DNA of 64,000 nt from an uncultured Candidatus Saccharibacteria bacterium (GCA_964629675.1 CAZVUG010000016.1:43-64042); one strand, 5' to 3'; positions 8,796 through 61,800 are shown, counted from the stretch's first letter. Notes: generated by a model from the letters alone, not told the origin. Translations and numbers: made by a program.

Positions 8796-9737
8796 TTAAT
8801 ATTGATTTCTCAACTTTGGCGAATATTTAAACATTAATTCTTTAATTTTTTCCAAGCTTTCTTTTCCAATTTTCGGCTTTTCCTCAGCGACAGATTTAGC
8901 CATTGCCCGAGAAGGTTTTGTCCTAACAAGAATAGTCGGTCCAGGGAATTTTTTTGGCTCTACAATTAAATCTCCTTTTAAGCTTAATTTTTTAATTTTC
9001 TCATTTTCTTCTTCATTTCTGCCAACAATAATTTTATTATTTTCAACCCAAAAATGGCGGCCTAGCTTTAATAATTTAATTTCTTCTCCGCCAGAATCAG
9101 GCCATTTAGAAAAAAGTTCCCTTAAACGCTTTCCAAATTCTAAATCTGTTAATAGACAACCTCCAGCAGGATTTGGATAATCTTTAATCCTTAATTTTTT
9201 AGCCAAAGAGATTTGTTCTTTTCTGCTACGCCCCTTAAGAGAAAGCAATTTTTTTCTTTCAACTAATCCTTTTTTCTCTGGAATAGTTGGTTCTAATAAT
9301 TGAGCTGATAAAGGTCTTAAAAGATAGCCCTTTAAGCCTGATTTTTCTTCAGTTAATTTTAGAGCATTTTTATTCTGTGAAAGAGGCCTTTCGCCTAATA
9401 CTTCGCCAGTAGCTATAAAGTCAAAAAAATTCATCATTTTTTTAGCTTCCCGCAGCATTAGAATTCGGCAGTCAAGGCAAGGATTCATTGATTTCCCATA
9501 ACCATATTTAGGATTTTTAACAACAGCTAGGTGTTTATTAGATATATCAACTAACTTAATTTTGATTTTTAAATAATCAGCTGCTTTCTGAGCTAATTTA
9601 GCATTAAAAAAATAACTGACAAAACATATGCCAGTCACCTCGATCCCTTGTTTTAATAATAATTTAGCAGTCAAAATAGAATCTAGCCCACCAGATAAAA
9701 GTACGAGGGCCTTAATTTTTTTCTTTTTCTTTAACAT
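8796..9737 (-). CDS. PP-loop ATP pyrophosphatase (tRNA thiolase-like, ThiI/MnmA superfamily)
   Basis: N-terminal PP-loop LLSGGLDS, conserved Cys pair (NPCLDCR) and a C-terminal GGCLLTD motif. Confidence 0.6.
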   Translation of the reverse strand: MLKKKKKIKALVLLSGGLDSILTAKLLLKQGIEVTGICFVSYFFNAKLAQKAADYLKIKIKLVDISNKHLAVVKNPKYGYGKSMNPCLDCRILMLREAKKMMNFFDFIATGEVLGERPLSQNKNALKLTEEKSGLKGYLLRPLSAQLLEPTIPEKKGLVERKKLLSLKGRSRKEQISLAKKLRIKDYPNPAGGCLLTDLEFGKRLRELFSKWPDSGGEEIKLLKLGRHFWVENNKIIVGRNEEENEKIKKLSLKGDLIVEPKKFPGPTILVRTKPSRAMAKSVAEEKPKIGKESLEKIKELMFKYSPKLRNQY

Positions 9738-15699: not shown

Positions 15700-16149
15700 T
15701 TATTTTAATTCTACTGTTGCGCCGGCTTCTTCTAGTTTTTGCTTAATTTCTTCTGCTTCTTCTTTTTTAACGCCTTCTTTAATTACTTTAGGAGCTCCAT
15801 CCACTAATTCTTTTGCTTCTCTTAACCCTTTGCCAGTAATCTCTTTAACTAATTTAACTACGGCAATTTTTTGCGCGCCAGCATCTTTAATTTCTATGTC
15901 AAATGAGCTCTTCTCTTCTCCGCCTTCAGCGCCTTGCCCTTCGCTACCGCCTTGCGCGCCAGCTGCTGGAGCAGCTGCCATCATTGGGCTTACACCGAAT
16001 TTTTTCTCCAGAACTTCAACTAACTTAGCTAAATCAGCTACATTGAGCTTTTCAATTTTTTCAACTAAATCTTTAAATTTTTCTGGGATTTCTTCTTCTT
16101 TAACAGAAGTTTCTTCCTCAGGATTATTTTTCTTATTTTCTTCGGTCAT
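15700..16149 (-). CDS. rplL: Ribosomal protein L7/L12 (atypically long)
   Basis: C-terminal domain [56 protein letters not shown]. Has an extra acidic N-terminal extension and a Gly/Ala/Gln-rich hinge. Confidence 0.92.
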
Positions 16150-16187
16150 AATTTATTTTACAACTAAAAATAAACTAAAACAATATT

Positions 16188-16712
16188 TTATTGTTTGCAG
16201 TTTATCATCCGTTGCTTTAATATTAAAGTTAATTTTATTAAATTTCCAGAAAGAACACCGACTAAACCGCTTAAAGGAGATGAAACGCTTCCAACTAATT
16301 TAGCCAGCAATTCTTCTCGAGAAGGCAGCTGAGATAATTTTGTAATTCCCTCCTGGTCAAAATATTCTCCGTTAATTAATCCGCCCATCATTTGAATTAC
16401 TTGTTCTTTCTTTGAAAAATTATACAAAATTTTAGTTGGAATAACTTCGTCTTGATAACCTAAAGCTAAAGCAAGCTGGCCAGGCATTTTTTCGGTTTTA
16501 ACTTTTGTAAAACCAGCTTTTTCTAAAGCTAAATCAGCAAGCGTCTTTTTAACTACTTGGCAGTTTATTTCTTTTTCTCGTAAATCTTCTCTTAATTTTC
16601 GAAATTGATTAACTTTCAAACCAGCGTAGTCAAAAAAGACAACTGTTTTTTGTTTAGAAAATTCTTTGGCTAAACTATCAATTATTTCTTTTTTATCTTT
16701 TTTATTAAGCAT
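16188..16712 (-). CDS. rplJ: Ribosomal protein L10
   Basis: 174 aa. The N-terminus (KEIIDSLAKEFSKQKTVVFFDYAGLKVNQFRKLR) is typical of L10. Sits directly upstream of rplL. Confidence 0.9.
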   Translation of the reverse strand: MLNKKDKKEIIDSLAKEFSKQKTVVFFDYAGLKVNQFRKLREDLREKEINCQVVKKTLADLALEKAGFTKVKTEKMPGQLALALGYQDEVIPTKILYNFSKKEQVIQMMGGLINGEYFDQEGITKLSQLPSREELLAKLVGSVSSPLSGLVGVLSGNLIKLTLILKQRMINCKQ

Positions 16713-16804
16713 GTTTTAAAATAAAAAACTACGGAAAGCCGTAGATAAAAAAACAAAAAAATTGTGCCTCAACAGGTCTTAAGTAATGCCTGTTATCTAC
16801 AGCT
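16713..16804 (-). promoter_or_regulatory. Candidate L10-leader-type attenuator upstream of rplJ
   Basis: Roughly 90-nt leader with two hairpins. The first is ACAGG...CCTGT. The second is CTACGGCTTTCCGTAG (16744-16729), followed by TTTTTTATTTT and ending 10 nt before the ATG. No SD is visible. Confidence 0.35.
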
Positions 16805-16810
16805 ATCTTT

Positions 16811-16839
16811 AGGATAATCTATTCTGTTTATCTAGTCAA
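16811..16839 (-). promoter_or_regulatory. Putative promoter of rplJL
   Basis: Minus strand: TTGACT (16839-16834), 17 nt, TATCCT (16816-16811). Confidence 0.45.
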
Positions 16840-16862
16840 CCCCCTTTTTAAAAAAATATAGT

Positions 16863-17846
16863 TTAATACAAATATTTGGCCTTATTTTGATTATGCTCTT
16901 CTAATGTTTTACTAAAGACAGTCTCTCCGTTAACTCCGGACAGAAAGAAATAATAATCGCTTTCTTGCGGATAAACAGCAGCTTTAATTGAAGATAATCC
17001 TGGATTGCAGATTGGTGTTGGCGGCAAACCAATGTTTCTATAAGTATTATAAGCAGAATCTATTTCCGTATCTTCTTGAGAATAGCGCCATTTATCAATT
17101 TCTAGAGCGTAAGCTATTGTCGCGCAAGATTCCAAAGGATAATTATCTGCCAATCTTCTCCAAAATATTCCAGAGACAATTTTCCTGTCCTGATCATTAT
17201 TTACTTCTTTTTCGATAATGCTGGCCATAATAATTATTTCTTCAATATCTTTTCCTTGATCCTCAATGTCAGCTTTTATTTTACTATCTAATTGGTCGGC
17301 AAAATTTTCTTTCATCTTTGATATTATTTTTTCTAAACTCTCGCCTTTTTCAAAATTATAAGTGTCGGGGAATAAATAGCCTTCTAATTCTTCTTTGTTA
17401 GCCAGCTCGCCCTCTTCGATTAAGCCATATTTTGCTAGACGGGCATCAATTTTTTTTAAATTGAATCCCTCTGGAATAGTTATTTTAATATCAACAGAGT
17501 TAGTTTCTCCTTGGATTATTTTATTTGCTATTTCTTTAACATTTAATCCGGGATTTATCAAATACTCGCCTGCTTTTAATTGAGCGCCCCAGCCCTTTAA
17601 TAAGATATATGACATAAACCAGATATCATTTTTAATTAAATTGTCTTTTTCTAAATTAGCCGCGATTTTTTTTAGCCCTTCACCTTCTTTGACTACAAAA
17701 ATCTGGTTATAGTTATTTCCTGAAGATAAAGGTTCAGAAAATTGATTTTTAATATAAAAATAGCTTATGCCGGTTAAAAAAATGACCAAAAGCATAATAA
17801 CTGATAATAAAAATAAGATAAATCTTGTTTTATTAATTATGATCAT
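16863..17846 (-). CDS. mltG: Endolytic murein transglycosylase MltG (YceG family)
   Basis: N-terminal TM segment plus a YceG-like domain (motifs EGYLFPDTY and ASIIEKE). Confidence 0.85.
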   Translation of the reverse strand: MIIINKTRFILFLLSVIMLLVIFLTGISYFYIKNQFSEPLSSGNNYNQIFVVKEGEGLKKIAANLEKDNLIKNDIWFMSYILLKGWGAQLKAGEYLINPGLNVKEIANKIIQGETNSVDIKITIPEGFNLKKIDARLAKYGLIEEGELANKEELEGYLFPDTYNFEKGESLEKIISKMKENFADQLDSKIKADIEDQGKDIEEIIIMASIIEKEVNNDQDRKIVSGIFWRRLADNYPLESCATIAYALEIDKWRYSQEDTEIDSAYNTYRNIGLPPTPICNPGLSSIKAAVYPQESDYYFFLSGVNGETVFSKTLEEHNQNKAKYLY

Positions 17847-20952: not shown

Positions 20953-20995
20953 ACGCCTAAATTCTGTATTAAGTTATAGATTTTGGGCGTTTTTT
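20953..20995 (+). terminator. Intrinsic terminator of the cassette gene
   Basis: Stem ACGCCTAAA/TTTGGGCGT (20953-61 and 20982-90) plus inner stem TCTGTA/TATAGA, followed by TTTTT. It overlaps the rpmG stop codon on the other strand. Confidence 0.6.
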
Positions 20996-21155
20996 ACTTC
21001 TTTATCTCCTTATGCACCGTATGCTTTTTGCACCATTTGCAAAATTTCTTCAATTCTAATTTTTTTTGAACTTGTTTTTTGTTTTTGTGAACGCGGTAGT
21101 TTATTCTTCCGCATTCAGTACATTGTAATTTAACTATATTTTCTTTATTATTCAT
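20994..21155 (-). CDS. rpmG: Ribosomal protein L33 (absent from the supplied ORF track because it is under 60 aa)
   Basis: My manual translation: [53 protein letters not shown] (53 aa). It has two CxxC zinc-ribbon pairs and the NY..KN.K....LELKK.C..C.KHT.HKE pattern of L33. Confidence 0.9.
21015..21053. repeat. Direct repeat copy 2 (inside intact rpmG)
   Basis: Identical 39-mer to 20344-20382. Confidence 0.95.
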
Positions 21156-21167
21156 ATTTTTTTATTG

Positions 21168-21240
21168 AGCCGACGGTCGGATTCGAACCGACGACCTACT
21201 CCTTACCATGGAGGTGCTCTACCAACTGAGCTACATCGGC
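21168..21240 (-). tRNA. tRNA-Thr (anticodon GGU)
   Basis: Reverse complement starts GCCGATGTAGCTCAGTTGGTAGAGC. Anticodon loop ATGGTAA; T-arm GTCGGTTCGAATCCGAC; acceptor GCCGATG/CGTCGGC. Confidence 0.88.
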
Positions 21241-21252
21241 TTAGATATTATG

Positions 21253-21336
21253 TGGGCGGTGCAGGACTCGAACCTGCGAAGTCCTTTCGGACGCTGGGTT
21301 TACAGCCCAGTGCAATAGCCGCTATGCGAACCACCC
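21253..21336 (-). tRNA. tRNA-Tyr (anticodon GUA), long variable arm
   Basis: Reverse complement starts GGGTGGTTCGCATAGCGGC. Anticodon stem-loop CTGGG-CTGTAAA-CCCAG; variable arm CGTCCGAAAGGAC; T-arm GCAGGTTCGAGTCCTGC. Confidence 0.88.
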
Positions 21337-21360
21337 CCATTGATAGGCGCATTTGCCGAG

Positions 21361-21432
21361 AGCCGACGGGGTGATTCGAACACCCGGCCAATGGTTTACA
21401 AAACCATTGCTCTACCACTGAGCTACGTCGGC
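21361..21432 (-). tRNA. tRNA-Thr (anticodon UGU)
   Basis: Reverse complement starts GCCGACGTAGCTCAGTGGTAGAGC. Anticodon stem-loop ATGGT-TTTGTAA-ACCAT; T-arm GGGTGTTCGAATCACCC. Confidence 0.9.
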
Positions 21433-22110
21433 TTATTCTATCCCCATCTCTTTTAATTTTTTGAGAACATCTCTTACTTTTCTATCTTTAGAGCCTAGCT
21501 TAATTGACATTTCTAGAGAATTTTTAGCATCATTATAATTATGCTGTTTCCAATAAAGAAGGCCTAGAAATTTATAGGCAGTAATATTCTTAGGATTTTC
21601 GACAATTAAGTCAATCCATTTCTGCTCCTCTTTGATTGGTTTTTCTAATTCATTCAAAGAAAGATCATCAGATTCTTCCTCTTCTATCATTTCTTCTTTT
21701 TCCGTTTCGTCATTGTTTATTTTAACAGATATTTCTTCTTCTGGCCTCTTTTTCAAAAGACTAAGATGCTTGCGCCGGCTTTCTCTTTCTTTAATCCACT
21801 CTTTTGATCTTTGAGATATAATCTGAGAACGGGTCCTTAACCATCTAATGCACTTTCTTAAAATATTATCTAATTTGAGAAAGATAATCTCTATTCTTCT
21901 TAAAAACTTTTCCAAAGAAACAACTAAATTAAACCAATAGCGTCCCCAATTAATTTCTTTAACTCTCTGGAAAAAACTTTTCTTCCTGGATAAAATTATT
22001 ATTTCTTCTTCAGAAAGATTAGCTAAAGATGGAATTTTACGGTAGATAATAACAACTAAGCCAGCTATCCCTAGTCCAGCTAGAATATAAAGTACAAGGT
22101 TAATACTCAT
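21433..22110 (-). CDS. Membrane-anchored protein with acidic linker and C-terminal TPR-like repeat
   Basis: N-terminal TM segment (LVLYILAGLGIAGLVVIIY). The C-terminus AYKFLGLLYWKQHNYNDAKNSLEMSIKL is TPR-like. 4-nt overlap with tsf. Confidence 0.5.
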   Translation of the reverse strand: MSINLVLYILAGLGIAGLVVIIYRKIPSLANLSEEEIIILSRKKSFFQRVKEINWGRYWFNLVVSLEKFLRRIEIIFLKLDNILRKCIRWLRTRSQIISQRSKEWIKERESRRKHLSLLKKRPEEEISVKINNDETEKEEMIEEEESDDLSLNELEKPIKEEQKWIDLIVENPKNITAYKFLGLLYWKQHNYNDAKNSLEMSIKLGSKDRKVRDVLKKLKEMGIE

Positions 22111-22556
22111 ATACTTAATTTTACAAATTTACCAATTTTAATATTTTCTCCCAGTTTAGTAATCTTTTCTCTAATTAATTCTTCTATTGTCTGCTTTTCA
22201 TTTTTAATAAACGGCTGTGAAAGAAATTCTTTTTTGTCAGCTGGATTCATTGCTGCAATCTGCATAGCTAGATCATGAGCCAGCTGCTTAAATTCATCAT
22301 TTTTAGCGACAAAATCACTTTCGCAAAGCAAAACCACAAGAGCGCCGCTCTTTTTATTGCTGTGGATATATGATTCTACTATCCCCTGACGGGTTTCTCT
22401 TTCAGCTTTTTTTAATGCTTTTTCGGCTCCTCTTTTTTCTAAAATTTCCGAAGCCTTTTTTTGATCACCAGCTGATTCTTCTAGAGCTTTTTTACACTCC
22501 ATAATAGAGAATCCGCTTTTTTGTCGAAGTTCTTTAACTTGTTCTGATAATATCAT
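22107..22556 (-). CDS. tsf: Elongation factor Ts, minimal 149-aa form
   Basis: N-terminal UBA-like EF-Ts domain (VKELRQKSGFSIMECKKALEES.GD..KASEIL) followed by a short core. Sits downstream of rpsB. Confidence 0.85.
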   Translation of the reverse strand: MILSEQVKELRQKSGFSIMECKKALEESAGDQKKASEILEKRGAEKALKKAERETRQGIVESYIHSNKKSGALVVLLCESDFVAKNDEFKQLAHDLAMQIAAMNPADKKEFLSQPFIKNEKQTIEELIREKITKLGENIKIGKFVKLSI

Positions 22557-23278
22557 TTTAATATTTTAGCCACACTTTCTAAAATTAATTTTAGCGAAGA
22601 GATGGCATCATCATTAGCCGGAATAGGAAAATCCACTGTTCCGGGATCGCCGTTGCTATCGCATAGGCCAATGCTAGGTATTTCCTTTATTTTAGACTCT
22701 TTAACAGCTAATTTCTCATTAGCAATGTCTACAATGAATAAAGCATCAGGCAATTTAGTAAGATTTTTAATGCCGCCGAATCTTCTTTCTAATTTAGACA
22801 GCTCAACATTAAATTCATGCTGCTCCTTTTTAGTATATTTTTTTAATTCACCAGTCTTTTTCTGTTTTTCTAAATCACGAAAATGCTCTAATCTTTTCGC
22901 AATAACGTCAAAATTACTCAGAGTTCCTCCTAGCCACCTTTCGGTTACGTAAGGCATTTTACAATCTTGAGCAACTTCTTTAACAATATCTTTGGCAACA
23001 ACTTTAGTTCCAATAAAAAGGATTTTTCCTTCCTCTTTTTTGATTTTTTCTAAAAATTTTAATGCTTCTTTTAGCTTTTCTAAAGTTTTTTCTAAATCAA
23101 TAACATGGACACTGTCCCGAACAGCAAAAATGTAAGGTTTCATTTTTGGATTGCTGCGGGATTTCTTGTGGCCAAAATGAACTCCGGCTTTTAACATTTC
23201 CTCTAAGCTAGGAACTGCTGAGGAAATTTTAGCAGAAGGCTTTATTTTCTTTTCTTTATTTTTTTCTTCTTTAATCAT
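22553..23278 (-). CDS. rpsB: Ribosomal protein S2
   Basis: LEEMLKAGVHFGHKKSRSNPKM and a conserved core. I start it at ATG 23278 (MIKEEK...). The longer track ORF (to 23401) would run through the rpmE promoter and start. Confidence 0.9.
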   Translation of the reverse strand: MIKEEKNKEKKIKPSAKISSAVPSLEEMLKAGVHFGHKKSRSNPKMKPYIFAVRDSVHVIDLEKTLEKLKEALKFLEKIKKEEGKILFIGTKVVAKDIVKEVAQDCKMPYVTERWLGGTLSNFDVIAKRLEHFRDLEKQKKTGELKKYTKKEQHEFNVELSKLERRFGGIKNLTKLPDALFIVDIANEKLAVKESKIKEIPSIGLCDSNGDPGTVDFPIPANDDAISSLKLILESVAKILK

Positions 23279-23345
23279 AGTGGAAGTATAACATATTACA
23301 AAATTTAAGCAACCCCATTTATTAACAACTATATTATACATAAAC

Positions 23346-23374
23346 TTGCTTTTAATCTTCAAGACTGATATAAT
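23346..23374 (+). promoter_or_regulatory. Promoter of rpmE-prfA-trpS; implies a near-leaderless rpmE mRNA
   Basis: TTGCTT (23346-51), 17 nt, TATAAT (23369-74). Only 9 nt separate the -10 element from the ATG (23384), and there is no SD. Confidence 0.6.
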
Positions 23375-23383
23375 AACAACATT

Positions 23384-23620
23384 ATGAAAAAAGATATTCA
23401 TCCTAAATATTATCCTAAGGCTAAAGTAAAATGCGCTTGCGGCAATATTTTTGAGGTTGGTTCAACTCAACCAGAAATAGAAATAGAAATTTGTTCTGCT
23501 TGCCATCCTTTTTATACTGGCAAAGAAAAAATTATCGAAACTGGCCAGGTGGAAAAGTTTAGAGCAAAATTATCTAAAAAAGAAACAAAATTTGGACCTA
23601 AGAATAAAAAAACCAAATAA
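23384..23620 (+). CDS. rpmE: Ribosomal protein L31
   Basis: [10 protein letters not shown]...CACG...[11 protein letters not shown]: the Zn-ribbon form of L31. Confidence 0.92.
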
Positions 23621-23626
23621 GCTAGT

Positions 23627-24346
23627 ATGCAAGGTATTATTATGGAAATTAGGTCAGGAGCAGGAGGAGAAGAAGCATCTATTTTCGTAGGTGATCTTTT
23701 TCGAATGTACTCACGCTTTGCTGAAAAACAAAATTGGTCTATTAACCTTATCGAAAGCCACCCGAGCGGTCCCAAGGGATACCGCGAAATAACTTTTGAA
23801 ATTAAAGGAGAAGATGTTTATGATAAGCTTAAGCAAGAAGGCGGAGTACACCGAGTTCAAAGAGTGCCAGTTACAGAAAAAGCTGGCCGAGTTCATACTT
23901 CGACTGTTTCCGTTGCTGTTTTACCTAAAGCTAGCCAAACTGAAATTAAGATTAATCCGCAAGATATAAGGGTTGATACTCTTCGTGCCTCTGGTCCAGG
24001 AGGCCAGCATGTTAATCGCAGAGAATCAGCAATTAGAATCACCCATTTATCTACCGGCATTACTGTTTCTTGCCAAGAAGGCAGAAATCAGCAGCAAAAT
24101 AAGGAGAAAGCTATGGAAGTTCTAAGAGCTCGCCTTCTGCAAAGAAAGATATTAAAAGAAATGGCTGCCAGAGGCAATGAAAGAAGAGAACAAATTGGCG
24201 AAGCAATGCGCGCAGAAAAAATTCGCACTTATAATTTCCCCCAAAACAGAATTACAGATCATCGCCTTAATAAATCTTGGCATAACTTAGATAAAATAAT
24301 TGACGGCGATTTAAAACAAATTATCAAAACTTTTAAAAAATTATGA
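23627..24346 (+). CDS. prfA: Class-I peptide chain release factor, RF1-like, lacking the N-terminal domain 1
   Basis: GGQ motif (SGPGGQHVN) and tripeptide P-V-T (RVPVTEKAGRVHTS, RF1-type PxT). The protein starts at the equivalent of about residue 105 of full-length RF1. The gene begins 6 nt after the rpmE stop. Its TGA stop overlaps the trpS ATG (ATGA). Confidence 0.8.
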   Translation: MQGIIMEIRSGAGGEEASIFVGDLFRMYSRFAEKQNWSINLIESHPSGPKGYREITFEIKGEDVYDKLKQEGGVHRVQRVPVTEKAGRVHTSTVSVAVLPKASQTEIKINPQDIRVDTLRASGPGGQHVNRRESAIRITHLSTGITVSCQEGRNQQQNKEKAMEVLRARLLQRKILKEMAARGNERREQIGEAMRAEKIRTYNFPQNRITDHRLNKSWHNLDKIIDGDLKQIIKTFKKL

Positions 24347-25329
24347 AGCGTATCTTTAGCGGTATTCAGCCAAGTGGCAATCTCCATATTGGCAATTACT
24401 TAGGGGCAATTAAGAACTGGGTTAACCTGCAGGAAGAATACAATTCTGTTTTTTGCATTGTTGATTTGCATTCTTTAACTGTTCAGCAAGATCCAAAAGT
24501 CCTAAGGAAAAGAACGCTGGAAGTAGCTGCTATTTATTTAGCTGCTGGCATAGATCCAAAAAAATCTATTATTTTCGTCCAGTCTCATTTAACCCAGCAC
24601 ACTGAATTATCCTGGTTATTAAACACAATTACTAAAATTTCCGAATTAGAGAGAATGACTCAATTTAAAGAAAAAGCCAAAAAGTTTAAACAAAATATTA
24701 ATATGGGCCTTTTCGCCTATCCGGTTTTAATGGCCGCTGATATTCTTCTTTATAATACTGATGCTGTTCCTGTTGGAGAAGATCAAAGACAACACGTAGA
24801 AATAGCCAGAATTATTGCCCGGCGATTTAATCAAATTTATGGAAAAGTCTTTACTGTTCCCGAAGCTTTAATTGAAAAAGAAGGCGCCCGGATTAAAGGA
24901 TTAGACGATCCAAGCAAGAAAATGTCAAAAACATCTGATAATCCTTATAACTATATTGCCTTAAATGATTCTCCTGAACAAATTAGAGAGAAAATAAAAA
25001 AAGCTGTTACTGATTCTGGAAAAGAAATAAAATACACTTCAACTAAGCCAGCTATTTCTAATTTAATTACTATTTTTTCTCTTTTTTCCGGAATTTCTCC
25101 ATTGGCAATTGAAAAAAAATATCAGCATAAAGGGTATGCTGAGTTTAAAAAAGATTTAGCAGAAACTATTATTAAAGGATTAAAAGATTTTCAGAAAAAG
25201 AAAAAGGATTTTGAGAGAAACCCGCAGAAGATTCAAAGAATTTTAGCAGAAGGCGCTCGGCAAGCAGAGTCAATTGCTAAAGAAACTTTAGAGAAAGCTA
25301 AAGAGAAGATGGGCCTATTAATTTTTTAA
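24343..25329 (+). CDS. trpS: Tryptophanyl-tRNA synthetase
   Basis: HIGH-type motif (PSGNLHIGNYLGA) and KMSKT motif. 328 aa. Confidence 0.93.
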   Translation: MKRIFSGIQPSGNLHIGNYLGAIKNWVNLQEEYNSVFCIVDLHSLTVQQDPKVLRKRTLEVAAIYLAAGIDPKKSIIFVQSHLTQHTELSWLLNTITKISELERMTQFKEKAKKFKQNINMGLFAYPVLMAADILLYNTDAVPVGEDQRQHVEIARIIARRFNQIYGKVFTVPEALIEKEGARIKGLDDPSKKMSKTSDNPYNYIALNDSPEQIREKIKKAVTDSGKEIKYTSTKPAISNLITIFSLFSGISPLAIEKKYQHKGYAEFKKDLAETIIKGLKDFQKKKKDFERNPQKIQRILAEGARQAESIAKETLEKAKEKMGLLIF

Positions 25330-25342
25330 AGAATTACATTTT

Positions 25343-26689
25343 TTATCTATTTTGAATTAACTGACTAATTTCGTCAGTTTTTTCTTTGCCTATTTTTTCA
25401 TCATCAGCTTCTAGATTAAGCCTGATTAAAGATTCTGTATTAGATGGGCGCAAATTAAACCACCAATTAGCATATTCTATAGTTAATCCATCTAAGTGGG
25501 AAATTTTGCCATCTTGGTATTCTTTTTCTATCTTTTCCAATATTTTCCCTTTATCTTCTACGGAAAAATTAGTTTCTTCAATATTATAATATTTTCTAAA
25601 AGGCTTGATCATCTCTGAGAATTTTTTATCTTGCTTAGAAAAAACAGAGATAATAAACAAAGATGCAATTAAGCCGCTGTCTGCCCTAAAATTATCTCTA
25701 AAATAATAATGTCCGGAATGTTCGCCAGCAAAGAAAGCGTCAGTTTCTTTCATTCTCTTTTTAATAAAAGAATGGCCAACTCTTTCTCTTAAAGGAATAC
25801 CTCCGTAATCTTTAATCGTCTCCGGAACAATGTGGCTGCAAACTGCATTATAAATTATCTTTTGCCCTGATTCTTTTTCTAAAATTTCTTTGGCTATTAA
25901 AGACATAATCAAAGAGCTGCTGATAGTTTGCGCTTTTTCATCTATAAAGAAAACTCTGTCGCCATCTCCATCAAAAGCCATGCCAAAATCAGCTTTTTCC
26001 GATAAAACTTTTTTCTGCAATTCTGCCAGATTCTTCTTCTCAATTGGATTTGCTAGATGATTAGGGAAAGAGCCGTCCAGCTCGAAGTATAAAGGAATAA
26101 TTGTGCAAGGAATTTTTTCAAAAACCAGCGGGATTATTTTACCAGCCATACCATTTCCAGCATCAACAACTATCTTTAATTCTTTCAAATGGGAGATATT
26201 AATAAAAGACAAAGCGTGCTCGACATAATCATTTAAAATGTCTTTTTTAATAATTTTTCCTAATGATTTTTCTCTATTTGCCGAAAGGCAATTATTTGAT
26301 AATTCAGCAATTTCTGGAAGGCCATTTATTTCTCCGACAGGAATAGCATCTTTCTGGCAAATTTTTAATCCATTATATTGAGATTCCAGATGAGAAGCAG
26401 TAATCATTATTCCCGGCAAATTTAATTTACCGGAAGCAAAATATAATGAATCAGAGCTTACTTTTCCAATATCAATTACATCTACACCTTGTTTAATAAT
26501 AGATTCAGACAAAGCTTTGAATAAATCATCTGAAGAAAGACGCATATCCCGGCCAACTAAAATCTGCTTAGCTTTTAGAAAAATCGCCAAGGCGCAACCA
26601 ATTTGCGATATGGCTTCTTCATTAATTTCCCGAGGATAAATTCCTCGGATATCATAAGCTTTAAAGATTTTTTTATTTATTCCCATCAT
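25343..26689 (-). CDS. Phosphomannomutase/phosphoglucomutase family
   Basis: Active-site loop TASHLESQYNG, metal site FDGDGDR and sugar-binding GEHSGH. Confidence 0.88.
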   Translation of the reverse strand: MMGINKKIFKAYDIRGIYPREINEEAISQIGCALAIFLKAKQILVGRDMRLSSDDLFKALSESIIKQGVDVIDIGKVSSDSLYFASGKLNLPGIMITASHLESQYNGLKICQKDAIPVGEINGLPEIAELSNNCLSANREKSLGKIIKKDILNDYVEHALSFINISHLKELKIVVDAGNGMAGKIIPLVFEKIPCTIIPLYFELDGSFPNHLANPIEKKNLAELQKKVLSEKADFGMAFDGDGDRVFFIDEKAQTISSSLIMSLIAKEILEKESGQKIIYNAVCSHIVPETIKDYGGIPLRERVGHSFIKKRMKETDAFFAGEHSGHYYFRDNFRADSGLIASLFIISVFSKQDKKFSEMIKPFRKYYNIEETNFSVEDKGKILEKIEKEYQDGKISHLDGLTIEYANWWFNLRPSNTESLIRLNLEADDEKIGKEKTDEISQLIQNR

Positions 26690-61610: not shown

Positions 61611-61800
61611 CAAAAAATCCCTCTTTGAGGGAATAAAAAAATATTAATACTCTCAAGCCTCGAAGAGATAATACTTAAAAGAAAATAATTAAGCGACCTG
61701 GCTTATTTCTTGCCCTTAGGCAAAAACATCACAGTTGCGGGTCAGCCGAGGATTCTCACCTCAGTTCGTTAATCATTATCTGCTTATTTTAAAATTACTT
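61611..61800 (-). promoter_or_regulatory. Cobalamin-riboswitch-like leader with terminator expression platform
   Basis: Minus-strand core GAACUGAGGUGAGAAUCCUCGGCUGACCCGCAACUGUGA closely parallels the conserved cobalamin aptamer core (GGUGnGAAUCC...GCnGnCCCGCnACUGUGA). Further elements: a closing helix AUUAACGA/UCGCUUAAU, a small hairpin UUGCC-UAAG-GGCAA, an AAGCCAGG B12-box-like element, and terminator UCCCUC-AAA-GAGGGA plus U6 (61632-61612). Confidence 0.6.

What the first reader, a model, noticed from the sequence alone, without database searches (positions are those of the whole stretch)
23627..24346. Class-I release factor (RF1-type, PVT tripeptide) that lacks the entire N-terminal domain 1
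Seen:
- The ORF is 239 aa. It starts 6 nt after the rpmE stop with MQGIIMEIRSGAGGEEASIFVGDLFRMY....
- That opening aligns to roughly residue 105 onward of full-length RF1 (about 360 aa in E. coli).
- The codon-recognition tripeptide (P-V-T in RVPVTEKAGRVHTS) and the GGQ loop are intact.
- The TGA stop overlaps the trpS ATG, and TAG and TGA both serve as stops in the window. The protein is therefore expected to function in a standard-code cell.

Established knowledge: domain 1 contacts the L7/L12-L11 stalk region and RF3. Naturally domain-1-less relatives such as PrfH and ArfB are specialised rescue factors, not the housekeeping RF.

Inference: there are two possibilities. One is a streamlined housekeeping RF1, perhaps co-evolving with the unusually long L7/L12 at 15700-16149 and reflecting the absence of RF3. 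The other is a specialised paralogue, with the full-length RF1 encoded elsewhere.
Basis: partly seen in the sequence, partly recalled or inferred. Interest (0 to 1): 0.55.

Follow-up and report, generated by a model that had tools for sequence, protein, structure and literature searches.

The report
Housekeeping RF1 lacking its N-terminal domain
This tiny-genome (Patescibacteria) bacterium and hundreds of its relatives carry, at the usual place of the release factor 1 gene, a well-conserved version that lacks the whole N-terminal domain, so they probably end protein synthesis at UAA/UAG with a naturally minimised factor that nobody seems to have described.

Summary
ORF 23627-24346 (+) encodes a 239-aa class-I release factor. 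It aligns without gaps to residues 107-341 of Thermus thermophilus RF1 and 111-342 of E. coli RF1. All RF1 decoding residues, the P-V-T tripeptide and GGQ are kept, and domain 1 is entirely absent.

It is not an assembly or gene-calling artefact. Two large families of 235-252-aa orthologues exist in Parcubacteria/Paceibacteria-type MAGs. They lie in the same tsf-rpsB <> rpmE-prfA arrangement that holds the full-length prfA in other Patescibacteria. dN/dS is 0.04-0.12. It scores as RF1 (370 bits), not RF2 (241) or PrfH (104).

The best reading is a secondarily truncated, positionally orthologous housekeeping RF1. It would work without the L11-stalk and RF3 contacts, like the engineered N-terminally truncated E. 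coli RF1 that supports growth.

Close relatives keep a two-helix remnant of domain 1. Trees do not recover a single origin of the short forms.

I could not scan a whole genome. Absence of a second, full-length prfA, and the state of RF2, RF3, PrmC and L11, therefore remain untested. I found no published description. It is a new variant of a known kind, of moderate to high interest.

The parts
23627..24346 (+). prfA-short: a 239-aa RF1 made only of domains 2, 3 and 4, with no domain 1
23663..23674 (+). G13-G-E-E16, equivalent to Gly116...Glu119 of T. thermophilus RF1 (tip of helix alpha5, which reads U1 of the stop codon)
   Evidence: Gap-free alignment with query residue i = Tth residue i+103. 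The role of these residues comes from established RF1-ribosome structures (4V63), cited from knowledge.
23858..23875 (+). Q78-R-V-P81-V-T83: Gln181 equivalent plus the PxT 'anticodon' tripeptide
   Evidence: P and T are invariant and x is variable in 51 family members.
23894..23899 (+). H90-T91, equivalent to His193/Thr194 (third stop-codon base pocket)
   Evidence: Invariant in the family.
23999..24007 (+). GGQ (residues 125-127), the peptidyl-tRNA hydrolysis motif in domain 3
24170..24211 (+). Switch-loop region (residues 182-195), predicted disordered in the free protein
   Evidence: pLDDT below 50 for residues 182-195. Aligns to the T. thermophilus RF1 switch loop.
23384..23620 (+). rpmE (ribosomal protein L31), directly upstream with a 6-nt gap. 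It is the conserved upstream partner of prfA in Patescibacteria.
24343..25329 (+). trpS, whose start overlaps the prfA stop (ATGA). Probably the last gene of an rpmE-prfA-trpS operon. A terminator-like hairpin lies at 25359-25379.
22107..23401 (-). Divergent tsf and rpsB genes that complete the conserved tsf-rpsB <> rpmE-prfA block. The real rpsB start is probably the internal Met near 23278.

Best explanation
**Claim.** This is the organism's ordinary housekeeping release factor 1 (prfA). It has secondarily lost the N-terminal helical domain 1 by deletion in place.

**Expression.** It is expressed from an rpmE-prfA-trpS operon. The 6-nt gap and the ATGA overlap suggest translational coupling.

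**Mechanism.** The protein starts two residues before the first beta-strand of domain 2.
- The 2/4 superdomain reads UAA and UAG in the 30S decoding centre, using the same residues as canonical RF1.
- The switch loop then lets domain 3 swing its GGQ into the peptidyl-transferase centre, and the peptide is released.
- Missing are the contact of domain 1 with the L11 N-terminal domain and the 30S beak, and the docking site for RF3.
- The factor must therefore bind and leave the ribosome on its own, or be displaced by RRF/EF-G.

**Shown here:** the domain composition, residue conservation, positional orthology, purifying selection and breadth of the family.

**Inferred:** that it is the only RF1 of the cell, that it is RF3-independent, and that RF2 (needed for the 18 TGA stops seen in the window) is encoded elsewhere.
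For: 1. RF1 identity.
- NCBIfam RF1 equivalogs give 370.6 and 368.7 bits over model positions 105-338 and 113-346. RF2 gives 241, PrfH 104 and ArfB 43.
- The protein is 50-55% identical, without gaps, to T. maritima, T. thermophilus and E. coli RF1.
- G116, E119, Q181, P184-x-T186, H193, T194 and GGQ (T. thermophilus numbering) are all kept and invariant in 51 relatives.

2. A real family.
- 118 of the 120 best hits in a 5.8-billion-protein collection are 234-251 aa at 67-100% identity.
- A second family around L072 has 120 of 120 hits at 235-252 aa. It includes contigs of 556 kb and 662 kb.
- 30 of 80 GTDB species loci carry the short form.

3. Positional orthology.
- In every short locus, and in 22 full-length Patescibacteria loci, prfA lies directly downstream of rpmE, usually opposite rpsB-tsf. 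The spacing differs by the size of domain 1.

4. Function is maintained. dN/dS is 0.04-0.12 for pairs with dS of 0.26-0.78.

5. Fold. The AF2 model has pLDDT 79 and superposes on free compact RF1 (1RQ0) with TM 0.84 and rmsd 2.4 A.

6. Precedent. In E. coli, domain 1 is not needed for stop-codon specificity or for peptide release, and N-terminally truncated RF1 functions in vivo. The truncation only abolishes stimulation of nucleotide exchange on RF3 (Mora et al. 2003, as summarised in PMC1586002). Domain 1 is the part that touches the L11 N-terminal domain and RF3 (PMC3677378).

7. An intermediate exists. P0086 (287 aa, 70% identical, same synteny) keeps only helices alpha1-alpha2 of domain 1.
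Against: - No complete genome could be scanned, so a second, full-length prfA elsewhere is not excluded. Only 64 kb of this genome and 6-20 kb around relatives were seen.
- RF2, RF3, PrmC and L11 of these lineages were not found or examined.
- RF3 is absent from 72 of 191 genomes, including Bacillus, Mycoplasma and Chlamydia (PMC1780047). The RF1 genes I saw from such groups still have domain 1; for example the Mycoplasma locus L083 is 364 aa. Domain 1 therefore has some RF3-independent value, and its dispensability here is unexplained.
- In E. coli, RF1 is reported inactive on L11-lacking ribosomes (reviewer comment in PMC1586002). This shows that the stalk contact can matter.
- No activity data exist for any short form.
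Confidence: 0.8

Rival explanations
1. It is a specialised paralogue, for example a rescue or stress factor in the manner of PrfH or ArfB. The true full-length RF1 would be encoded elsewhere in the genome.
For: - The known natural class-I RF relatives without domain 1 (PrfH, ArfB/ICT1) are rescue factors (PMC6514570; PMC1586002).
- No whole genome was checked.
- The protein falls below the NCBIfam RF1 trusted cutoffs (370.6 against 400, and 368.7 against 423.25).
Against: - It occupies the ancestral prfA slot after rpmE, and no full-length gene is there.
- All RF1 decoding residues are kept, whereas PrfH has altered ones. The PrfH model gives 104 bits against a cutoff of 166.65, and there is no rtcB neighbour.
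- The shortfall in RF1 score is what losing about 105 model positions would cost.
- dN/dS of 0.04-0.12 is typical of a core gene.
- No second RF gene occurs in the window or in the stretches held around the roughly 35 short-form loci, which reach 3 to 10 kb on each side where the contig allows.
Confidence: 0.1
2. Domain 1 is not lost but is supplied in trans. It would be encoded as a separate small gene (a split prfA), or replaced by another protein that docks on the short RF1.
For: - Split genes occur in reduced genomes.
- Small PCRF-only proteins of 87-157 aa exist in the protein collection.
Against: - Those small proteins are ends of contigs or frameshift halves of ordinary full-length RF1s. 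For example, P0352 is followed directly by the 211-aa remainder of the gene.
- No domain-1-like sequence is found in the 64-kb window or near any short locus.
- That profile search had low sensitivity, with only 10 hits in all, so this is a weak negative.
Confidence: 0.05
3. It is an artefact: a misassembly, a wrong start codon, or a decaying pseudogene.
For: A single MAG contig can carry deletions or chimeric joins.
Against: - The same rpmE/prfA junction and the same N-terminus (M-x-x-G-I-I-x-E-I-R-A-G) recur in more than 100 independent assemblies from NCBI, JGI, ENA and Logan.
- The rpmE stop codon lies in the prfA frame, two codons before the ATG, so the ORF cannot extend upstream.
- ORFs are intact everywhere and under purifying selection.
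Confidence: 0.02

Closest known systems
Canonical bacterial RF1 (prfA; TIGR00019 / PRK00591; structures 1RQ0, 4V63, 2B3T)
   Same: - Domains 2, 3 and 4 are 50-55% identical, without gaps.
- The PxT tripeptide, GGQ, switch loop and all stop-codon-reading residues are kept.
- The predicted fold is the compact free-RF form.
- It occupies the same genomic slot next to rpmE as in other Patescibacteria (and, from memory, in Bacillus).
   Different: - It lacks the whole domain 1 of about 105 residues, which contacts the L11 N-terminal domain, the 30S beak and RF3.
- It scores below the curated equivalog cutoffs, so NCBI names such proteins only 'PCRF domain-containing protein'.
Engineered N-terminally truncated E. 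coli RF1 (Mora, Zavialov, Ehrenberg & Buckingham 2003, Mol Microbiol 50:1467; read here only through PMC1586002)
   Same: - Same architecture, domains 2-4 only.
- That construct keeps codon specificity and release activity and functions in vivo. It is the best functional model for the natural protein.
   Different: - The E. coli version is a laboratory deletion in an organism that has RF3.
- The present one is a natural form, fixed and conserved across lineages, whose ribosome and partner factors are uncharacterised.
PrfH (RFH), the RtcB-linked release factor homologue
   Same: It lacks domain 1 and keeps a codon-recognition-like domain and GGQ.
   Different: - PrfH has diverged decoding motifs, sits in an operon with rtcB, and has a sporadic, horizontally transferred distribution.
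- The present protein has canonical RF1 motifs and ribosomal-gene synteny, and gives only 104 bits against the PrfH model (cutoff 166.65).
ArfB / ICT1 / C12orf65 stand-alone GGQ proteins
   Same: GGQ domain without domain 1.
   Different: - They also lack the codon-recognition superdomain and use a C-terminal basic helix in the empty mRNA channel.
- Only residues of about 105-139 of the present protein match the ArfB model (43 bits).

Membership tests
Bacterial class-I release factor RF1 (prfA) | Codon-recognition superdomain (domains 2/4, PCRF) and GGQ domain 3 (RF-1) | tested here: met
   Pfam PCRF 1.8e-42 (C-terminal half of the model only) and RF-1 9e-39. AF2 model against 1RQ0: TM 0.84.
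Bacterial class-I release factor RF1 (prfA) | RF1-type decoding elements: PxT tripeptide, Gly116/Glu119, Gln181, His193/Thr194 (T. thermophilus numbering) | tested here: met
   Gap-free alignment to T. thermophilus RF1. These residues are invariant in the family.
Bacterial class-I release factor RF1 (prfA) | GGQ hydrolysis motif | tested here: met
   SGPGGQHVN at residues 122-130.
Bacterial class-I release factor RF1 (prfA) | N-terminal helical domain 1 (the site that interacts with the GTPase RF3 and with L11) | tested here: not met
   The protein starts at model position 105/347. The rpmE stop lies in frame two codons upstream. No domain-1 similarity is found in the window.
Bacterial class-I release factor RF1 (prfA) | Score above the curated equivalog cutoff (TIGR00019 423.25; NF001859 400) | tested here: not met
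   368.7 and 370.6 bits. The shortfall corresponds to the missing domain. RF1 is still far ahead of RF2 (241 bits).
Bacterial class-I release factor RF1 (prfA) | Orthology with housekeeping prfA (same locus as in related genomes) | tested here: met
   rpmE-prfA adjacency, opposite rpsB-tsf, is shared by short and full-length Patescibacteria loci.
Bacterial class-I release factor RF1 (prfA) | UAA/UAG-dependent peptide release on the ribosome | not testable with these tools
   Needs biochemistry or genetic complementation.
Bacterial class-I release factor RF1 (prfA) | Single copy: the only RF1 of the genome | not testable with these tools
   No tool gives whole genomes. There is no second RF gene in the 64-kb window or in the stretches held around the relatives' genes, up to 3-10 kb on each side.
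PrfH (RFH) | PrfH-specific decoding motifs, equivalog score, and an rtcB neighbour | tested here: not met
   TIGR03072 gives 104.2 bits against a cutoff of 166.65. The neighbours are rpmE and trpS.
RF2 (prfB) | SPF tripeptide and RF2 equivalog score | tested here: not met
   The tripeptide is PVT, not SPF. TIGR00020 gives 241 bits against a cutoff of 370.
ArfB | GGQ domain alone, with a C-terminal basic tail | tested here: not met
   Only residues 105-139 match, at 42.7 bits against a cutoff of 100.

The most novel reading that the evidence does not exclude
Whole lineages of Parcubacteria/Paceibacteria (Minisyncoccia) use a domain-1-less RF1 as their only UAA/UAG release factor. The domain was lost in place more than once, through intermediates that keep only helices alpha1-alpha2.

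These ribosomes would then terminate with no contact between the release factor and the L11 stalk or RF3. That state is not seen even in Mycoplasma or in other RF3-less bacteria. It implies either a changed factor-binding site on the CPR ribosome or a real dispensability of domain 1 in slow-growing episymbionts.
Probability: 0.55. Interest if true: 0.7.

Novelty: new variant of a known kind. Interest (0 to 1): 0.6.

Why it matters
1. It is a natural experiment on what domain 1 of class-I release factors is for.
- The domain is kept in every full-length RF1 seen here, including in a Mycoplasma (L083, 364 aa).
- RF3 is missing from many bacteria that still keep domain 1 (PMC1780047).
- Large Patescibacteria lineages nevertheless seem to live without it.
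- How termination and factor recycling work without RF3 is called unresolved in PMC1780047. These proteins make that question directly testable with natural proteins and, eventually, CPR ribosomes.

2. It adds a translation factor to the list of ribosome simplifications known for CPR bacteria (missing uL1, bL9 and uL30, and shortened rRNA).

3. It has a practical side.
- The short proteins fall below the curated RF1 model cutoffs.
- NCBI therefore labels them 'PCRF domain-containing protein'.
- Marker-gene pipelines that use TIGR00019 would probably count RF1 as missing in these genomes. This is my inference and was not tested.

4. A compact natural RF1 of about 240 aa could be useful for minimal or cell-free translation systems.

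Tried and rejected
**RF2 of the same lineages.**
- I scanned metagenome contigs for an AT-biased back-translation of SPFDxxxRRHTSF. This gave 120 RF2 loci.
- All complete genes had a full domain 1.
- None could be assigned to Patescibacteria. Neighbour similarity to the window or to Patescibacteria loci was low. Cluster names pointed to Sphaerochaetaceae, Hydrogenedens and Verrucomicrobia, or were absent.
- The state of RF2 therefore remains unknown.

**Stand-alone domain 1.**
- A profile of 12 Patescibacteria domain-1 sequences plus the P0086 remnant (A1) found only 10 proteins. All were fragments or frameshift halves of ordinary RF1s.
- The word-indexed search is insensitive for this low-complexity coiled coil, so this is only a weak negative.

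**Remnant of domain 1 in larger rpmE-prfA gaps.**
- In L041 the gap of about 340 nt is explained by a longer L31 and a G+C-rich intergenic stretch, not by a decayed domain.

**Partners in the window.**
This is uninformative for the genome as a whole.

**AlphaFold database fold search.**
- I wanted it for organism names, but it was not available.

**Single origin of the short forms.**
- Neighbour-joining with 100 bootstraps never recovered all short forms as one clade (0 of 100).
- Deep nodes are weak (10-36%), so the number of independent losses is unresolved.

**Group-specific residues.**
- Residues that distinguish short from full-length forms (K216, A193, N207 and others) look phylogenetic rather than compensatory. 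K216 also occurs in the nearest full-length sequences.

**Literature.**
- Six full-text searches and seven papers read gave no description of N-terminally truncated RF1 in CPR/Patescibacteria.
- The library does not cover most subscription journals.

Full report
**1. What is in the window**

The ORF at 23627-24346 (+) encodes 239 aa beginning MQGIIMEIRSGAGGEEA.
- It follows rpmE (L31, 23384-23620) after 6 nt.
- The rpmE TAA is in the prfA frame, two codons before the ATG, so the ORF cannot be extended upstream.
- Its TGA overlaps the trpS ATG (ATGA at 24343-24346).
- A terminator-like hairpin follows trpS at 25359-25379. No promoter or terminator signal above chance lies inside the three genes.
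- rpsB and tsf run divergently upstream.
- The window has 33.6% G+C. Its 70 non-nested ORFs of at least 100 aa end in TAA 47, TGA 18 and TAG 5. Its only tRNA-Trp reads UGG. The code is therefore standard, and an RF2 must exist somewhere.
- No second RF gene is in the 64 kb.

**2. What the protein is**

- Pfam finds only the C-terminal half of the PCRF domain (model positions 101-194 of 194) plus a complete RF-1 domain.
- The NCBIfam RF1 equivalogs score 370.6 and 368.7 bits over model positions 105-338 and 113-346. This is just below their full-length cutoffs of 400 and 423.25.
- RF2 scores 241 bits, PrfH 104 and ArfB 43.
- Against solved structures, the protein aligns without a gap to T. maritima RF1 89-318, T. 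thermophilus RF1 107-341 and E. coli RF1 111-342.
- With query residue i equal to T. thermophilus residue i+103, all stop-codon-reading residues are present: Gly116, Glu119, Gln181, Pro184-Val-Thr186, His193, Thr194 and GGQ 228-230. Ile192 is replaced by Val. The roles of these residues come from the published RF1-ribosome structures, cited from knowledge.
- An AlphaFold2 model built on 51 family members has mean pLDDT 79 and pTM 0.70. Only the switch-loop region (182-195) is disordered.
- The model superposes best on free, compact RF1 (1RQ0: TM 0.84, rmsd 2.4 A over 237 columns). It fits less well on ribosome-bound, open RF1 (TM about 0.6), as expected for a factor that opens on the ribosome.
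- The protein is therefore RF1 domains 2, 3 and 4. It begins two residues before the first strand of domain 2.

**3. It is real and conserved**

- In the 5.8-billion-protein collection, the best 120 hits (67-100% identity) are 234-251 aa, with two exceptions of 284 and 287 aa. They come from NCBI, JGI, ENA and Logan assemblies. Their names include Portnoybacteria, 'Parcubacteria group' and 'Patescibacteria group'.
- NCBI calls them 'PCRF domain-containing protein'.
- A second query, the short RF1 of locus L072 (53% identical to the window protein), has its own 120 of 120 short hits (235-252 aa, 63-98% identity). Names include Candidatus Pacebacteria, Minisyncoccia, bacterium HR35 and Candidatus Parcubacteria KatS3mg096. 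Some lie on contigs of 556,583 and 661,819 bp.
- Among 80 species-representative genomes fetched from GTDB, 30 carry a 229-250-aa form. All start 2-14 residues before the conserved (I/V)-I-x-E-I-R-A-G strand.
- Pairs within the window's clade with unsaturated dS (0.26-0.78) give dN/dS of 0.04-0.12.
- Misassembly, a wrong start and pseudogene decay are thereby excluded.

**4. It is the positional orthologue of housekeeping prfA**

- In every short locus, rpmE lies directly upstream, and rpsB-tsf usually lie divergently beyond it.
- The same arrangement holds for 22 full-length (344-373 aa) RF1 genes of other Patescibacteria, including Falkowbacteria, Nomurabacteria, Kerfeldbacteria, Doudnabacteria and Saccharibacteria-labelled MAGs.
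- In full-length loci, the distance from the end of the L31 match to the start of domain 2 is about 450-550 nt. In most short loci it is about 10-130 nt.
- A Dojkabacteria RF1 (P0126) is also full length, at 367 aa.
- The short gene is therefore what is left of the resident prfA after loss of its first 105 or so codons. It is not an extra copy.
- Close relatives (P0086 and P0114, 70% identical, same synteny) carry a 45-residue N-terminus that aligns to helices alpha1-alpha2 of domain 1. The alpha3-alpha4 hairpin is deleted. This is an apparent intermediate.
- No trace of domain 1 is detectable in the window or near any short gene.

**5. One loss or several**

- A neighbour-joining tree of the shared region places the short forms in several groups:
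  - the window's clade (100% bootstrap);
  - a second group with a full-length sequence (L022) among them;
  - the L061/L072 family;
  - L079/L084;
  - L041.
- All-short monophyly was recovered in 0 of 100 replicates. Deep nodes have only 10-36% support.
- All short forms share Lys216 with the nearest full-length sequences (L022, L028, L029, L031, L036). This places them inside one larger Parcubacteria-type group.
- Repeated loss is likely but not proven.

**6. How it most likely works**

[quoted passage not shown] It is the part touched by RF3 (PMC3677378).
- Work on E. coli showed that deleting the N-terminal domain does not affect codon specificity or in vitro release. [quoted passage not shown] 2003, as summarised in PMC1586002).
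- The natural protein should therefore decode UAA/UAG and hydrolyse peptidyl-tRNA as usual, and bind and leave without stalk or RF3 assistance.
- That these lineages lack RF3 is plausible for small genomes (PMC1586002; PMC1780047), but it was not tested.
- RF3 loss cannot be the whole story. RF3 is missing from 72 of 191 genomes, including Bacillus, Mycoplasma and Chlamydia. The Mycoplasma RF1 seen here is nevertheless full length, at 364 aa (L083).
- Something else makes domain 1 dispensable here: slow growth, a changed factor-binding site, or a change in the stalk.
- The window's L7/L12 has a 20-25-residue acidic N-terminal extension before its dimerisation domain. Any link to RF1 is speculation.

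**7. What could not be settled**

- No tool gives whole genomes. A second, full-length prfA elsewhere is made unlikely by the positional orthology, but it is not excluded.
- My attempt to find the RF2 of these lineages failed. 120 AT-rich RF2 loci from metagenomes all had domain 1, but none could be assigned to Patescibacteria.
- A profile search for stand-alone domain-1 proteins returned only fragments of ordinary RF1s, and it was insensitive.

**8. Comparison with the known, and verdict**

- The protein works like RF1 and descends from RF1. It fails one defining feature of the family (domain 1) and, as a consequence, the curated model cutoffs.
- It is not PrfH, ArfB or RF2.
- Its closest functional analogue is the engineered E. 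coli truncation.
- Six full-text searches, and reading of the main reviews on release-factor evolution and on CPR ribosomes, found no description of it. The library lacks most subscription journals.
- I rate it a new variant of a known kind, with interest 0.6. The main explanation has confidence 0.8. The chief open point is the whole-genome census.

Noticed in passing
window 15700-16149 (-): Ribosomal protein L7/L12 is 149 aa. An acidic stretch of about 20-25 residues ([25 protein letters not shown]...) precedes the dimerisation domain, and there is no internal start that would remove it.
   Followed up: partly
window 15700-17846 (-): rplJ-rplL is not preceded by rplK-rplA as in most bacteria. 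The upstream gene is a YceG-like protein. tblastn with E. coli L11 and L1 finds nothing in the 64 kb.
   Followed up: partly
L206 3001-3864 and L207 323-1186 (protein P0086; also P0114): Close relatives (70% identical, same rpmE-prfA synteny) have a 284-287-aa RF1. It keeps only helices alpha1-alpha2 of domain 1, with the alpha3-alpha4 hairpin deleted. This looks like an intermediate in the loss.
   Followed up: yes
L084 2983-3681 (Candidatus Shapirobacteria MAG, PFLE01000004.1): A 232-aa short RF1 next to rpmE has GGH in place of GGQ (SSHGGHNV). Its nearest neighbour L079 keeps GGQ. This is either a sequencing error or a catalytically altered factor.
   Followed up: no
window 61639-61794 (-): An AdoCbl (cobalamin) riboswitch scores 61.6 bits against a gathering score of 50. 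This is unexpected in a genome with so little metabolism. The downstream gene was not examined.
   Followed up: no
window 8796-9737 (-): A 313-aa protein combines a PP-loop tRNA-thiolase-like N-terminal part (tRNA_Me_trans / ThiI) with a C-terminal NFACT-R_2 RNA-binding domain.
   Followed up: no
window 20994-21432 (-): rpmG (L33) is followed by a tight tRNA cluster: Thr(GGT), Tyr(GTA), Thr(TGT). The long ORFs listed across 21165-21418 are just translations of these tRNA genes.
   Followed up: yes
window 23278-23401 (-): The mechanical rpsB ORF begins at 23401 and overlaps the rpmE start. Its first 41 residues look spurious. The real start is probably the Met of MIKEEKNKEKK near 23278.
   Followed up: partly
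L098 192-1199 (metagenome contig OJBN01012766.1): An RF2-type gene (SPF loop) has a C-terminus that switches to RF1-like sequence (GSGDRSERIRTYNYPQG) just before the contig end. This is either RF1/RF2 gene conversion or a chimeric assembly.
   Followed up: no
L209 9202-9885 (-): In one short-RF1 genome (JGI contig of 661,819 bp), a purine DNA glycosylase gene is inserted on the opposite strand between rpmE and prfA. The operon link is therefore not universal.
   Followed up: no
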